A DNA stretch of 64,000 bases from NCBI RefSeq assembly GCF_017348835.2, contig NZ_CP071375.1; one strand, written 5' to 3'. The translations under genes were made by a program, and so were the position numbers. This document shows, in pieces, positions 28,649 through 34,736 of the stretch. Under the pieces are notes generated by a model that was given only the letters and a program-made list of their open reading frames with translations, was not told where the DNA came from and searched no databases. Source of the DNA: Escherichia coli (GTDB lineage Bacteria > Pseudomonadota > Gammaproteobacteria > Enterobacterales > Enterobacteriaceae). Position 1 is the stretch's first letter; each line of letters starts with the position of its first letter.

Positions 28649-29539
28649 TTAATACTCGAGAATGCCGTGCGCGACGGGCAAATAGCGCAGAGAGAAATAG
28701 AGAGTGTCTTTACCGCAAGAGGAACGTTTCGCTAACAGCGAGGCAATTTCTGCGTCCGGTTTCGGTTTCGCTGTAAAGGTTTTGCCTTTGCCGGCGACAA
28801 ACAGTTCATAAACAATGCCGCTTGCTGGGGCGGAACTCTGGCAATCGGCGCTGGCCTGTAGATAACGTTCACGCTGTTCAGCGGTAAGTTTATCCACGCC
28901 GCTGCCATCCTGTACCCAGACATTAACGCCGGTTGCTTTAACTTGTTCCAGCAGTTGGCGATAGCCATCTGGCGACATGTTTCCGGCGAAAAAACTACTG
29001 ATATAAACCGGTTTTGCTGAAACATCGCTAATCAGCCGCTGCGCGTTGTTTAACCATGTTAGCAAAGGCTGACGGGCGGCTTCGCTGCGCCAGTTCAGGT
29101 CGTCAATTTCCGCGCTGATGTACCAGCCATCCGGCGTTACGCCAGGCGCGGCGCTCCATAATCTGGCTTGCTGGAGATCGGCAGCCAGCAGGCGATTAAG
29201 ATAGCTTTCCAGCGCTGCGGACGACTGTTTCTGGTGCATAAAAAATTCCGGATCGGCGTTCAGCCCGACAATCAGCTTCAGACCAGCCTGTTGCGCAGCT
29301 GCGGCCCGCTTAAACAATAACGTGCGCTGTTCTGGCTGGGTAAATGCATCGCCGTAACGGGTCCATTGCAAAACCAGGGTATCGAAGCCTTGCAAACGTA
29401 ACTGACTCATCAGCCCCTGCCACTGGGTATCGGTAACCTGACTATCTCGGTTTTGTGGTTGCCAGATAATACCTTTCATCGCAAAGGAAAAAGGGCTGAC
29501 CAAAAGCAGTGTCAGCAATACGAAAATGAACTTACGCAT
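28649..29539 (-). CDS. ybcH: YbcH, periplasmic component of the Nfr polysaccharide system
   Basis: 296 aa with signal peptide; start abuts the nfrA stop. Confidence 0.9.
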   Translation of the reverse strand: MRKFIFVLLTLLLVSPFSFAMKGIIWQPQNRDSQVTDTQWQGLMSQLRLQGFDTLVLQWTRYGDAFTQPEQRTLLFKRAAAAQQAGLKLIVGLNADPEFFMHQKQSSAALESYLNRLLAADLQQARLWSAAPGVTPDGWYISAEIDDLNWRSEAARQPLLTWLNNAQRLISDVSAKPVYISSFFAGNMSPDGYRQLLEQVKATGVNVWVQDGSGVDKLTAEQRERYLQASADCQSSAPASGIVYELFVAGKGKTFTAKPKPDAEIASLLAKRSSCGKDTLYFSLRYLPVAHGILEY

Positions 29540-32512: not shown

Positions 32513-34736
32513 TTTCGGACTCCAGTTGCGCAACCTGTTCTGTGTTTAAACCTGCTTTGAGTAATAGTGATTGCATCGAAACTTGTAATTCGCGTTGAAT
32601 TGTCAGGACGCGATCCAACGTTTCCTGGCTGATAACGCCTTCGGTGACCAAAAACTTGCCGAGCGGCAGAGAACTGCGTTCATGGCGCAATAACAACACG
32701 TTAATTGCCGAACGATTAATATGACCGAGCGTGGTCAGTATTTCGGCGAACAGGAACTGATGCGGCACATATTGCCGCCAGATTTCACCGGCCTGCTGTT
32801 CCGTGAGCCACTGATGCTGAACCGCATTGTACAACATTGCCCGCGGATCGTGACCGCGTCGGCGTGCATACCAGTGACGTAACCCCGTGACAATTTGTCC
32901 CCGCAGAACAATGACGTAACGCACTTTGCGTCCGACTTTACGCGTCAGGGCCGCCAGCGAAACCGGGTCAATACCATCTTCACTGCCGACAATTAACTCA
33001 TCATTTTCCAGACGCAGCGGCAGTACCGCATAATGCAGCGCCACGGAGGGCGGCATTTCGGCAATCAGCGAGGAAGGGATCTGCCAGGCATCGATGGATT
33101 CCCACGCCACGCCGTTTTGCTCTGCCAGCGCCTGTGCCAGCTGCTCGGCGCTAATCAGCCCCTGCATCAGCATTGAACCGCCCAGGCGTAGACCTTCGAC
33201 GCGATTACGCAGTGCTGTATCGAGTTGTTCTTCAGTGATGACCTGATTTTCCAGCAGAATTTGACCTAACGGGCGCAACGAGCGGGTATCGCCAGTCACG
33301 CTGGGGAAGTCATGCGTTGTTTTATCCCACGCGACGCGACGTGGATCGCCGTGTTGAAGTACCTGTTTTAACGCGCGCCAGTTGGCCATGAAGTTAATCA
33401 GGTTGCCCCAGAAAAGACGCAGGACAGATAGTAGCCCCTGCGTCAGGCCGTAGTAGCCAGTGACGAAAATCACCCGCTGCACGATGCGGTTAACCATCAA
33501 GCCAAAGTTTAGCCACAGCAGGGTCATTAACCATGCGCTGCCGCTAAAAATAGAAAGGAAATGCCAGGCATCGGGCCACAAACTTTCATACGCCAGCAAC
33601 AGCAAAAGCTGGATCATCACCAGCATCGCGAGGAAGCTGACAAAGTTACTGATTGCCCCTTTGCGGTCGCGCCAGAGAAAGTAGTTCAGCGTCAGGCTGG
33701 AGGTCCATTTATGGGTTTTAAAGCCCTGGAAAACAATGCCGATGATCCAGCGGGATTTTTGTCGAACCGCAGTCGAAAAGGTATCGGGGAAATATTCGCG
33801 CACGCAGATCATGTTTGACGTCCGTGCGTGCTGTAAAAATTTACGCTGCTCGCGTTCTTTGGCTTCGTCCACCACCGGAAAACGGACAAAAATTTCCGTC
33901 ATACCTTTTTCTTTCAGGCGGAAGCCAATGTCGTAATCTTCAGTAAGACTCTGCACGTCGAAAGCAATACCGTCACCGTCAGCTAACAGTGCGGTCACGG
34001 CGCGGCGGCTGAAACAGGTGCCGACGCCTGCGCTGGGCACTTGTCCGGCGAGGGCTTCACGCACCGGAACATCTTTTCCATGCAGTTCTGAAAACTCATC
34101 AATGTAAGTCATGCTGGTGAAGTGCGTCCATTCGCGTTCGAACGGATACACCGGGATCTGAATCAGATCTTTACGCTCGACCAGATAGTTGAACAGACGC
34201 AACTCCATCGGTGAAATTACGTCTTCGGCGTCATGCAGAATAAAACCAGCAAAAGCGAAATTGGCGCTACGCTCAAATTGGGTGATGGCGTCCAGCACGT
34301 TGTTCAGACAGTCGGCTTTGCTGGTGGGGCCAGGACGCGCGCAGACTACCTTATGCACATTCGGGAAGCGAGCGCACACTTCGTCAACATCACGCTGAGT
34401 GTCCGGGTCGTTGGGGTAGGTGCCAACAAAGATATGATAGTTTTCGTAGTCGAGCGTGGTCGCCGCCAGCTCGGCCATATTGCCGATGACGCCCGTTTCA
34501 TTCCACGCCGGAACCATAATCGCTAACGGTTTTTCATCTGGTTTATACAGTTCGCGGTAACTCATTCGCGGGTAGCGGCGATAAACACTCAACTTGCGTT
34601 TAATGCGGCGTACCCAGTAGACGACATCAATAAAAAAATCGTCCAGCCCGCTGATGAACATGATGACCGCTAACGTTATCGCGATTACTTTTAAGCCATA
34701 GAGCCAGGTAGCAAAAACATCAAGAAGCCAGTCCAC
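32499..34736 (-). CDS. nfrB: NfrB, inner membrane family-2 glycosyltransferase with C-terminal c-di-GMP-binding MshEN-like motifs
   Basis: 745 aa; QKSRW (QxxRW) motif; two RLG/PLG-x-(I/F)L-x-x-x-V-I-(T/S)-x-E-x-L-D motifs in the C-terminal part. Confidence 0.93.
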   Translation of the reverse strand: MDWLLDVFATWLYGLKVIAITLAVIMFISGLDDFFIDVVYWVRRIKRKLSVYRRYPRMSYRELYKPDEKPLAIMVPAWNETGVIGNMAELAATTLDYENYHIFVGTYPNDPDTQRDVDEVCARFPNVHKVVCARPGPTSKADCLNNVLDAITQFERSANFAFAGFILHDAEDVISPMELRLFNYLVERKDLIQIPVYPFEREWTHFTSMTYIDEFSELHGKDVPVREALAGQVPSAGVGTCFSRRAVTALLADGDGIAFDVQSLTEDYDIGFRLKEKGMTEIFVRFPVVDEAKEREQRKFLQHARTSNMICVREYFPDTFSTAVRQKSRWIIGIVFQGFKTHKWTSSLTLNYFLWRDRKGAISNFVSFLAMLVMIQLLLLLAYESLWPDAWHFLSIFSGSAWLMTLLWLNFGLMVNRIVQRVIFVTGYYGLTQGLLSVLRLFWGNLINFMANWRALKQVLQHGDPRRVAWDKTTHDFPSVTGDTRSLRPLGQILLENQVITEEQLDTALRNRVEGLRLGGSMLMQGLISAEQLAQALAEQNGVAWESIDAWQIPSSLIAEMPPSVALHYAVLPLRLENDELIVGSEDGIDPVSLAALTRKVGRKVRYVIVLRGQIVTGLRHWYARRRGHDPRAMLYNAVQHQWLTEQQAGEIWRQYVPHQFLFAEILTTLGHINRSAINVLLLRHERSSLPLGKFLVTEGVISQETLDRVLTIQRELQVSMQSLLLKAGLNTEQVAQLESENEGE

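What the first reader, a model, noticed from the sequence alone, without database searches (positions are those of the whole stretch)
28649..34736. nfrB-nfrA-ybcH: c-di-GMP-controlled polysaccharide synthase-secretion module and phage N4 receptor locus
NfrB combines a family-2 glycosyltransferase (QKSRW motif) with two C-terminal MshEN-like c-di-GMP-binding motifs; NfrA is a ~990-aa TPR plus beta-barrel outer membrane protein; YbcH is periplasmic. The three genes have tightly coupled start/stop junctions. The system was characterised only recently and its physiological polymer role is still thinly studied. It sits about 2 kb from the prophage end.
Basis: partly seen in the sequence, partly recalled or inferred. 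Interest (0 to 1): 0.45.

Follow-up and report, generated by a model that had tools for sequence, protein, structure and literature searches.

The report
Known E. coli nfrBA-ybcH operon
This stretch is the intact, already characterised E. coli nfrB-nfrA-ybcH operon, a c-di-GMP-switched machine that makes and exports a surface sugar polymer which phage N4 uses as its receptor; it is ordinary for E. coli, and I add only two small untested refinements about its domains.

Summary
Window 28649-34736 (minus strand) holds ybcH, nfrA and nfrB. It is 100% identical to E. coli PE164, and about 93% of 5,426 complete E. coli genomes carry the region. All three proteins exceed the NCBIfam equivalog cut-offs. 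NfrB has the GT2 domain (D169, TED265, Q326KSRW) and the MshEN c-di-GMP module (aa 488-540). NfrA has a signal peptide, TPRs and the NfrA_C barrel domain. YbcH is a DUF4434 protein. The gene junctions are coupled: a 14-nt overlap and a 0-nt gap.

The interpretation matches two 2021 mBio papers, so the locus is already known.

Two increments go beyond the papers I could search:
1. The NfrB family carries a second MshEN_N-type 53-residue module at the extreme C-terminus (E. coli aa 661-714; hhalign 98.9%, E 3.6e-17). Its first half is degenerate in E. coli.

Next door, envY is split by a 1,310-bp IS3-family element.

The parts
32499..34736 (-). nfrB CDS (745 aa, GTG start): inner-membrane processive family-2 glycosyltransferase with C-terminal c-di-GMP receptor region
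   Evidence: ORF; NCBIfam NF008411 1330.8 bits against a cut-off of 1170; one residue different from K-12 (A563P)
33591..34529 (-). NfrB GT2 catalytic domain (aa 70-382) with D169AED (34221-34232), T265ED (33936-33944) and Q326KSRW (33747-33761)
   Evidence: Pfam PF13641/PF13632; motif positions; D169, D267 and W330 are required for N4 infection in K-12 (PMC8669469)
33117..33275 (-). NfrB MshEN_N module 1 (aa 488-540): two tandem 24-residue c-di-GMP-binding motifs
   Evidence: NCBIfam c-di-GMP_motif NF053729 66.4 bits against a cut-off of 38, at 489-540; regex hits; phmmer to MshE 5HTL and PilF; L490, G491 and G519 mutants are defective in K-12
32853..33113 (-). NfrB MshEN alpha/beta subdomain (aa 542-628); carries the only substitution relative to K-12 (A563P)
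   Evidence: Pfam MshEN PF05157 1.1e-13 at 542-628; AF2 model pLDDT 90 with Foldseek TMt 0.70-0.75 to 8PDK and 5HTL
32595..32756 (-). NfrB second MshEN_N-type module (aa 661-714). The first half is degenerate in E. coli (FLFAE in place of RLGD). The second half is intact (PLGKFLVTEGVISQETLDRVLTIQ).
   Evidence: hhalign of module-1 profile A4 against module-2 profile A5: 98.9%, E 3.6e-17; A5 profile against PDB sequences: MshE 5HTL residues 9-61 at E 7.6e-12, PilF at 1.6e-27; 63 of 150 family representatives carry two or more modules
32505..32576 (-). NfrB C-terminal tail (aa 721-744): a further single helical-hairpin repeat resembling half a MshEN motif; overlaps the nfrA start
   Evidence: Alignment columns (RLGDVLI.. 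in distant homologues aligned with SMQSLLLKAGL in E. coli); AF2 helices 256-262 and 267-279 of the 466-745 model. Inference, weak.
29540..32512 (-). nfrA CDS (990 aa): signal peptide (aa 1-27, ..SALA|D), TPR region (about 60-124 and 517-708), C-terminal NfrA_C outer-membrane domain (aa 809-977 = 29582-30088), terminal ..IGVHW
   Evidence: Pfam; NCBIfam NF007302 1889.8 bits against a cut-off of 1223; N- and C-termini read; modelled as PgaA/BcsC/AlgE-like in PMC8669472
28649..29539 (-). ybcH CDS (296 aa): N-terminal signal or anchor (aa 1-20), then a DUF4434 (beta/alpha)8 barrel; invariant E144 (29108-29110) and E245 (28805-28807)
34737..34885 (-). cusS-nfrB intergenic region holding the nfrBA-ybcH promoter (promoter position not mapped here)
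   Evidence: Identical to K-12 over 149 bp; nfrB::lacZ data in K-12; no sigma-70 or sigma-28 consensus above background
28612..28638 (-). 12-13-bp hairpin about 10 nt after the ybcH stop, followed by CUUUCGCUCUC: possible weak terminator or 3' stabiliser marking the operon end
   Evidence: RNA fold: MFE -21.6 kcal/mol, z -2.2; not called by the consensus terminator scan. Inference.

Best explanation
This is the chromosomal nfrB-nfrA-ybcH operon of E. coli, intact and apparently functional. It is a synthase-dependent exopolysaccharide system.

How it works:
- NfrB sits in the inner membrane. It is a processive GT2 synthase that is inactive until c-di-GMP binds its cytoplasmic MshEN domain. In K-12 the c-di-GMP is supplied locally by DgcJ.
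- NfrB polymerises a sugar, probably N-acetylmannosamine from WecB-made UDP-ManNAc, and pushes it across the membrane.
- NfrA receives the chain in the periplasm through its TPR region and exports it through its C-terminal outer-membrane barrel.
- The surface glycan (NGR) is the primary receptor of phage N4 and its relatives. NfrA is the secondary protein receptor. When overproduced, the glycan hampers swimming.
- YbcH is an accessory periplasmic protein. From its fold and two invariant glutamates I infer that it is the system's glycoside hydrolase, the counterpart of BcsZ and the PgaB C-terminal domain, rather than a mere scaffold.

Basis of each step:
- Shown here: gene identity, intactness, domain and motif content, operon architecture and conserved synteny.
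- Shown by others in K-12: c-di-GMP binding, the requirement for the GT and MshEN residues, and the DgcJ and WecB dependence.
- Inferred: polymer identity, YbcH catalysis, and any role for the second MshEN-type module.
For: - Identity: 100% to PE164, and present at 80% or more coverage in 5,046 of 5,426 complete E. coli genomes; RefSeq names the genes.
- NCBIfam equivalog scores exceed the cut-offs for all three proteins.
- Pfam finds GT2, MshEN, TPR, NfrA_C and DUF4434.
- All experimentally critical residues are present (compared).
- Only 1, 7 and 4 amino-acid changes against K-12, from 23, 34 and 13 nucleotide changes, which indicates purifying selection. The promoter region is identical.
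- Start/stop coupling is as reported.
- Synteny GT2-MshEN / TPR-NfrA_C / DUF4434, often with a WecB-like epimerase, is conserved in homologues of 38-46% identity from metagenomes.
- The MshEN fold is confirmed: AF2 pLDDT 90, Foldseek to c-di-GMP-bound PilF and MshE.
Against: - Nothing contradicts the identification.
- DgcJ, WecB and PdeL lie outside the window, so the regulatory inputs could not be checked for this strain.
- No consensus sigma-28 promoter was found upstream, although K-12 data show FliA dependence. Control may be indirect.
- YbcH lacks the Asn that usually precedes the acid/base Glu in clan GH-A (SAE, PAE, PLE instead of NE). It is dispensable for N4 infection. The alignment has only 7 sequences. 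Catalysis is therefore unproven.
- The polymer has never been chemically defined in the literature I could search.
Confidence: 0.95

Rival explanations
1. The older model: NfrA and NfrB are simply protein receptors for phage N4 (an outer-membrane receptor plus an inner-membrane entry factor), with no polysaccharide involved.
For: NfrA is bound directly by the N4 tail sheath protein gp65 (cited in PMC8669469). The polymer has not been chemically characterised.
Against: NfrB has every processive-GT2 signature. GT-active-site mutants and wecB mutants block infection in K-12. The operon has the full synthase, TPR-porin and glycosidase-like layout, which is conserved in distant bacteria and often sits next to a UDP-GlcNAc 2-epimerase gene.
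Confidence: 0.02
2. The operon is present but functionally silent or irrelevant in this particular strain, for example because it is masked by O-antigen or capsule, lacks DgcJ input, or is affected by the A563P change.
For: The window cannot show dgcJ, wecB, pdeL or the O-antigen status. Expression is low even in K-12. Other E. coli lineages do carry decayed alleles.
Against: All three ORFs are full length, with catalytic and ligand-binding residues intact, and the promoter region is identical to K-12. Residue 563 is a variable column in the family alignment.
Confidence: 0.12
3. This rival concerns only the role of YbcH. YbcH is a non-catalytic periplasmic scaffold or chaperone, as the K-12 authors proposed, and not a hydrolase.
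For: The published label is 'putative scaffold'. The ybcH deletion has only a partial motility phenotype and no N4 phenotype. The canonical GH-A Asn-Glu pair is missing. PgaB-like and GH-like folds can act as binding modules.
Against: Two glutamates sit at exactly the GH-A catalytic positions and are invariant at 23-33% identity. The best structural neighbours are active glycosidases, including the PNAG hydrolase domain of PgaB/BpsB. In other synthase-dependent systems the hydrolases are also dispensable for bulk secretion; this last point is from my own knowledge of BcsZ, PslG and PelA.
Confidence: 0.4
4. This rival concerns only the role of the second MshEN-type module (aa 661-714). It is a structural relic of a duplication and does not bind ligand in E. 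coli.
For: Its first half has lost the R-L-G signature in E. coli and its close relatives (FLFAE). The NCBIfam 53-residue model reports only one stretch in NfrB. G491L in module 1 alone abolishes function. The inter-half spacer is longer than the canonical 5 residues.
Against: The module is retained across the family down to about 32% identity, with both halves canonical in many homologues. [quoted passage not shown] The K-12 binding assay used aa 414-745, so it did not separate the two modules.
Confidence: 0.55

Closest known systems
E. coli K-12 NfrB-NfrA-YbcH (b0569-b0567), the N4 glycan receptor (NGR) system (Junkermeier & Hengge 2021; Sellner et al. 2021)
   Same: Same genes, order, 14-nt overlap and chromosomal position between cusS and envY. 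The proteins are 99.9%, 99.3% and 98.6% identical, and the upstream region is identical.
   Different: One NfrB substitution (A563P), seven in NfrA and four in YbcH. The neighbouring envY is interrupted by an IS element here. DLP12 is replaced by a fuller lambdoid prophage.
Bacterial cellulose synthase BcsA-BcsB-BcsC-BcsZ
   Same: A processive GT2 with D,D,D,QxxRW signatures, activated allosterically by c-di-GMP; a TPR plus beta-barrel exporter; an accessory periplasmic glycosidase; local control by a dedicated diguanylate cyclase.
   Different: The c-di-GMP sensor is MshEN rather than PilZ. There is no BcsB-like partner. The substrate is presumed to be UDP-ManNAc rather than UDP-glucose. YbcH is a GH-A-like DUF4434 protein rather than GH8.
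PgaABCD poly-beta-1,6-GlcNAc system
   Different: PgaCD bind c-di-GMP at a subunit interface and have no MshEN. PgaB also has a deacetylase domain, which YbcH lacks.
MshE / PilB / PilF MshEN domains (PDB 5HTL, 8PDK, 6F8L)
   Same: A 53-residue four-helix c-di-GMP-binding module followed by an alpha/beta subdomain (phmmer E 2e-5 to 7e-16; Foldseek TMt 0.70-0.75). Like T. thermophilus PilF, NfrB carries more than one MshEN_N-type module.
   Different: In NfrB the module is fused C-terminally to a membrane glycosyltransferase instead of N-terminally to a secretion ATPase. The second NfrB module has no alpha/beta subdomain and is half-degenerate in E. coli.
BT_0435 (PDB 4H41), DUF4434 'putative alpha-L-fucosidase' of Bacteroides thetaiotaomicron
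   Different: Only 15% identity. 4H41 is a structural-genomics entry whose name is a prediction, and it is not part of an EPS synthase operon.

Membership tests
NfrB (NCBIfam NF008411, cyclic di-GMP-activated glycosyltransferase) | Whole-protein score above the curated equivalog cut-off | tested here: met
   1330.8 bits against a cut-off of 1170, covering profile positions 1-722 of 723; 744 of 745 residues identical to K-12
Processive family-2 glycosyltransferase (BcsA-like synthases) | [quoted passage not shown] | tested here: met
   D169AED, T265ED and Q326KSRW; Pfam GT2 2e-40; hydrophobic segments at 18-36, 365-383 and about 391-425. Catalysis itself is not testable here.
MshEN c-di-GMP receptor domain | Two tandem 24-residue motifs RLGxx(L/V/I)(L/V/I)xxG(L/V/I)(L/V/I)xxxxLxxxLxxQ joined by a spacer of about 5 residues, forming a four-helix bundle | tested here: met
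   Motifs at aa 489-512 (8 of 11 key positions) and 517-540 (11 of 11), with spacer VEGL; NF053729 66.4 bits against a cut-off of 38; four helices in the AF2 model; Foldseek to c-di-GMP-bound 8PDK and 5HTL
MshEN c-di-GMP receptor domain | Actual c-di-GMP binding | not testable with these tools
   Shown for K-12 NfrB 414-745 (Kd about 1 uM; PMC8669469). The sequence here differs only at residue 563.
Second MshEN_N-type module (NfrB aa 661-714) | Homology to the 53-residue module, with both half-motifs canonical | tested here: inconclusive
   Homology is clear at family level (hhalign 98.9%; 5HTL residues 9-61 at E 7.6e-12). In E. coli only the second half fits the motif (10 of 11 positions). 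The first half has F661, F663 and A664 in place of R, L and G, and the spacer is longer.
NfrA (NCBIfam NF007302) / TPR-porin exporters of synthase-dependent EPS systems | Signal peptide, periplasmic TPR array, C-terminal outer-membrane beta-barrel | tested here: met
   1889.8 bits against a cut-off of 1223; TPR and NfrA_C Pfam hits; an AxA-type cleavage site after A27 and a C-terminal aromatic residue (..IGVHW). I did not model the barrel fold itself; Sellner et al. did.
YbcH / DUF4434 (NCBIfam NF007404) | Whole-protein score above the cut-off | tested here: met
   521.9 bits against a cut-off of 344; Pfam 5.5e-69
Clan GH-A retaining glycoside hydrolases (considered for YbcH) | (beta/alpha)8 barrel with the acid/base Glu at the end of beta4 and the nucleophile Glu at the end of beta7 | tested here: met
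Clan GH-A retaining glycoside hydrolases (considered for YbcH) | Conserved Asn immediately before the acid/base Glu (NEP motif) | tested here: not met
   The residue before E144 is A, L, M, Q or T in the homologues. I therefore do not file YbcH as a GH-A member, only as GH-A-like in fold and in the placement of the candidate catalytic residues.
Synthase-dependent exopolysaccharide operon | Co-transcribed synthase, exporter and accessory periplasmic enzyme, conserved together across taxa | tested here: met
   Coupled junctions; the same three genes are adjacent in loci L003, L005 and L008 from unrelated metagenomes, with a wecB-like epimerase in L003, L008 and L009

The most novel reading that the evidence does not exclude
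The published one-sensor, scaffold model of the Nfr machine is incomplete in two ways.

1. The NfrB family carries a second MshEN_N-type module at its extreme C-terminus, followed by a fifth half-repeat. This module would be a functional regulatory element: a second c-di-GMP site, or the docking or dimerisation surface for DgcJ. It is fully canonical in many non-enteric homologues and half-degenerate in E. coli.

2. YbcH/DUF4434 would be an active periplasmic glycoside hydrolase specific for the ManNAc-type polymer. That would define a new hydrolase family for synthase-dependent EPS systems.
Probability: 0.3. Interest if true: 0.4.

Novelty: already known. Interest (0 to 1): 0.15.

Why it matters
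As a locus it matters for practical reasons. An intact nfrBA-ybcH operon predicts sensitivity to N4-like (Schitoviridae) and other NGR-dependent phages, which is relevant for phage typing and therapy of this pig-associated E. coli lineage. It is also one of the clearest examples of local c-di-GMP signalling.

Nothing about its presence here is surprising. The two refinements could guide experiments on a system whose polymer and accessory protein are still uncharacterised:
- A second MshEN-type module means that binding stoichiometry and allostery should be re-examined with separated modules.
- A GH-A-like YbcH with two invariant glutamates offers a candidate enzyme for degrading and characterising the unknown polymer.

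Tried and rejected
1. BLASTP of NfrB 484-547 against 636-745 gave no alignment. The internal repeat became significant only with family profiles.

2. The search for homologous proteins with NfrB returned only near-identical E. coli clusters in its top 120, which was useless for diversity. With a distant YbcH homologue, and then with a six-sequence profile, it returned only 4 and 3 hits. The YbcH alignment therefore has only 7 sequences.

3. A 120-nt deletion-junction query was uninformative because the tool joins split pieces. A 60-nt junction at E<=1e-10 worked.

4. The sigma-28 consensus scan upstream of nfrB gave a best score of 11 of 16. Scores that high occur 128 times in the window, so there is no evidence for a consensus FliA promoter. 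The sigma-70 and terminator scans were at or below shuffle expectation.

5. Rfam found no RNA family in 25800-37200 apart from the frameshift pseudoknot of the IS element.

6. No solved structure exists for NfrB, NfrA or YbcH themselves.

7. Plus-strand ORFs inside the operon (for example 30182-30700 and 29453-29890) were treated as antisense chance ORFs of a 52-57% GC coding region. They have no annotation in RefSeq and I did not pursue them.
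Full report
**1. What is there**

The window between 28649 and 34736 holds three long minus-strand ORFs of 296, 990 and 745 codons.
- A megablast of 28000-35500 against 5,426 complete E. coli genomes gave a 100% match to strain PE164 (pig, China). Some match was found in 5,413 genomes, and 5,046 genomes covered at least 80% of the query.
- RefSeq annotates the three genes there as ybcH (DUF4434 family protein), nfrA (bacteriophage adsorption protein NfrA) and nfrB (cyclic di-3',5'-guanylate-activated glycosyltransferase). They are flanked by cusS on one side and envY-ompT plus a lambdoid prophage on the other.

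**2. Junctions and starts**

- The nfrB stop (TAA, 32499-32501) lies 14 nt inside nfrA, whose ATG is at 32512 and is preceded by GGAG. The same 14-nt overlap is reported for K-12 (PMC8669469).
- The nfrA TAA is followed directly by the ybcH ATG.
- nfrB starts with GTG at 34736, after an AAGG.
- A stable hairpin follows the ybcH stop (28612-28638; MFE -21.6 kcal/mol, z -2.2). It may mark the operon end.

**3. Domain and motif checks**

- NfrB: Pfam GT2 (PF13632 2e-40, PF13641 6e-35) and MshEN (PF05157 1e-13, aa 542-628).
- NfrB motifs: D169AED, T265ED and Q326KSRW. MshEN 24-residue motifs lie at 489-512 and 517-540. NCBIfam's 53-residue c-di-GMP motif model scores 66.4 bits there, against a cut-off of 38.
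- NfrA: TPR hits, NfrA_C at 2e-67, a signal peptide ending SALA|D, and a C-terminal ..IGVHW.
- YbcH: DUF4434 at 5.5e-69, with a hydrophobic N-terminus and an S-F-A site.
- All three proteins exceed the NCBIfam equivalog cut-offs (1330.8/1170, 1889.8/1223, 521.9/344).

**4. Comparison with K-12 and the literature**

Against MG1655, the differences are as follows.

| Gene | Nucleotide differences | Amino-acid differences |
|---|---|---|
| nfrB | 23 | 1 (A563P) |
| nfrA | 34 | 7 |
| ybcH | 13 | 4 |

The 149-bp cusS-nfrB intergenic region is identical.

Two 2021 mBio papers established the biology in K-12:
- NfrB 414-745 binds c-di-GMP with a Kd of about 1 uM.
- D169A, D267A and W330A, and L490A, G491L and G519S, impair N4 infection.
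- DgcJ is the specific, physically interacting cyclase, and PdeL protects against infection.
- WecB is required, but the rest of the ECA pathway is not, which points to a ManNAc polymer (NGR).
- The operon is FliA- and temperature-controlled.
- ybcH is dispensable for N4 infection and only partly needed for the motility effect.

These points come from PMC8669469 and PMC8669472. Every one of the critical residues is present here. NGR is now used routinely as a receptor category in the phage literature.

**5. Beyond the published picture: the NfrB C-terminus**

A scan of 1.84 billion cluster representatives found 637 relatives at E<=1e-30. I aligned 20 full-length homologues of 31-61% identity (A1).
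- The region after the MshEN alpha/beta subdomain shows a second tandem pair of MshEN-type motifs. The family consensus is ..YxxLGDxLVxxGxxxxxxLxxAL..(spacer)..LGxxLxxxGxISxxxLxxALxxQ.
- Profile-profile comparison of module 1 (A4) with module 2 (A5) gives 98.9% probability and E 3.6e-17.
- The module-2 profile alone finds the c-di-GMP-binding residues 9-61 of MshE (5HTL, E 7.6e-12) and several modules of PilF (6F8L, E 1.6e-27).
- In E. coli and its closest relatives the first half-motif has decayed (F661-L-F-A664 in place of R-L-G). The second half is intact (P691-LGKFLVTEGVISQETLDRVLTIQ714) and fits the relaxed motif of Wang et al. 2016.
- An AF2 model of aa 466-745 (pLDDT 90.3) shows two sets of four helices with the same length pattern, plus a final hairpin. 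Overall it matches the c-di-GMP-bound PilF and MshE domains.
- Among the 150 best family representatives, 63 carry two or more modules, 42 carry one and 45 carry none. Some of these representatives are fragments.

[quoted passage not shown] The K-12 binding construct (aa 414-745) contained both modules. Whether module 2 binds anything is untested.

**6. Beyond the published picture: YbcH**

I used seven homologues, four of them taken from nfr-type operons in metagenomic loci.
- AF2 gives a confident (beta/alpha)8 barrel (pLDDT 87.6, pTM 0.87).
- Foldseek agrees, finding GH10, GH113 and GH5_18 enzymes at E about 1e-5.
- The family profile also finds 4H41 by sequence (E 5.3e-6), aligning the GWY-x-x-E strand.
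- Two glutamates, E144 and E245, are invariant and sit at the C-terminal ends of beta4 and beta7, which are the clan GH-A catalytic positions.
- The usual Asn before the acid/base Glu is absent. I therefore call YbcH GH-A-like and do not file it as a member.

By analogy with BcsZ, PgaB-C, PslG and PelA (my own knowledge of those systems), the likeliest role is a periplasmic glycosidase that trims or clears the polymer. That role is compatible with the mild ybcH phenotype.

**7. Conserved context**

Distant NfrB homologues keep the same neighbours. The arrangement is epimerase-nfrB-nfrA-DUF4434 in L003, nfrB-nfrA-DUF4434 in L005, and DUF4434 / epimerase-nfrB-nfrA in L008. This agrees with the phylogenomic survey in PMC8669469.

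**8. Surroundings in the window**

- envY, immediately downstream of ybcH, is split by a 1,310-bp IS3-family element (26672-27981) with inverted ends TGAACCGCCCCGG and a 3-bp TAA duplication. From memory it resembles IS629/IS1203. Rfam finds its ALIL frameshift pseudoknot at 27007-27123.
- Colinearity with K-12 places the DLP12 right boundary at about window 26301, which is 2,348 bp from ybcH. Without the IS element the distance would be 1,035 bp.
- No sigma-28 consensus stands out upstream of nfrB.

**9. Verdict**

The finding is real, correctly located and correctly interpreted. It is a named, experimentally characterised E. coli operon, so novelty is 'already known' and interest is low. The two refinements, a second MshEN-type module and a hydrolase-like YbcH, are modest, computational and untested.

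Noticed in passing
window 26672-27981 (envY fragments at about 26392-26673 and 27981-28466): A 1,310-bp IS3-family insertion sequence with terminal inverted repeats TGAACCGCCCCGG and a 3-bp TAA target duplication splits the envY regulator gene just downstream of ybcH. From memory it looks like IS629/IS1203. Its programmed-frameshift ALIL pseudoknot is at 27007-27123 (Rfam 120 bits). PE164 carries 32 matching places in its chromosome.
   Followed up: partly
window 22966-24921 (ORF 23255-24739, minus strand): Between the prophage tail-fibre-assembly remnant and ompT, a segment of about 2 kb encoding a 494-aa alpha/beta hydrolase replaces the K-12 appY region. There is no blastn match to K-12 578-596 kb.
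   Followed up: no
L012 (NZ_CP104114.1) 2621-4633; protein P0074: A 670-aa NfrB allele in other E. coli is an in-frame 75-codon deletion of aa 471-545, between the short repeats GTCGCGTGGGA and GTGGCGTGGGA. It removes exactly the two c-di-GMP-binding motifs of module 1. The junction was found in 6 of 5,426 complete genomes, and in the one inspected nfrA is also frameshifted. This is probably a phage-resistance or decay allele.
   Followed up: partly
L011 (GCA_946405345.2) 4591-10807; protein P0029: In a common E. coli lineage (the protein is indexed in 1,231 collection blocks), a VgrG-DcrB-PAAR/DUF6531 type VI secretion cargo cluster is inserted between cusS and nfrB. The PAAR/Rhs-like ORF runs in frame into nfrB from about residue 45, giving a predicted 1,268-aa fusion that lacks NfrB's first transmembrane helix and its native promoter. 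nfrA and ybcH remain intact downstream.
   Followed up: partly
window 33102-33326 (nfrB aa 471-545) against E. coli genomes: 370 of 5,426 complete E. coli genomes have no megablast match to this segment, although nearly all of them match some part of the 7.5-kb region. A minority of strains therefore carry larger nfrB lesions.
   Followed up: no
window 34737-35100 (minus strand, upstream of nfrB): There is no convincing sigma-28 (TAAAGTTT-N11-GCCGATAA) or sigma-70 consensus, even though K-12 reporter data place the operon in flagellar class 3. FliA control may be indirect, or the promoter may be non-consensus.
   Followed up: partly
L006 3529-5277; L010 10211-11173; protein P0276: There are architectural variants of the partner proteins. 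One locus has an NfrA homologue of only 582 aa with NfrA_C but no TPR region, and no DUF4434 neighbour. One has a 320-aa TPR-only gene after nfrB. One metagenomic protein fuses DUF4434 to F5/8 type C and fibronectin-III domains, a combination typical of secreted carbohydrate-active enzymes.
   Followed up: no
window 34886-36328 (cusS): cusS differs from K-12 at 9 residues. Five of them cluster at positions 393-407 (T393P, G394S, T396A, D405E, L407Q), which looks like a small recombination patch in the kinase domain.
   Followed up: no
window 33048-33050 (NfrB codon 563): NfrB A563P is the only difference from K-12, and the other E. coli alleles inspected also lack it. It lies in a variable column of the MshEN alpha/beta subdomain, so it is probably neutral. 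The two genomes that match the 7.5-kb query at 100% identity are both pig isolates.
   Followed up: partly
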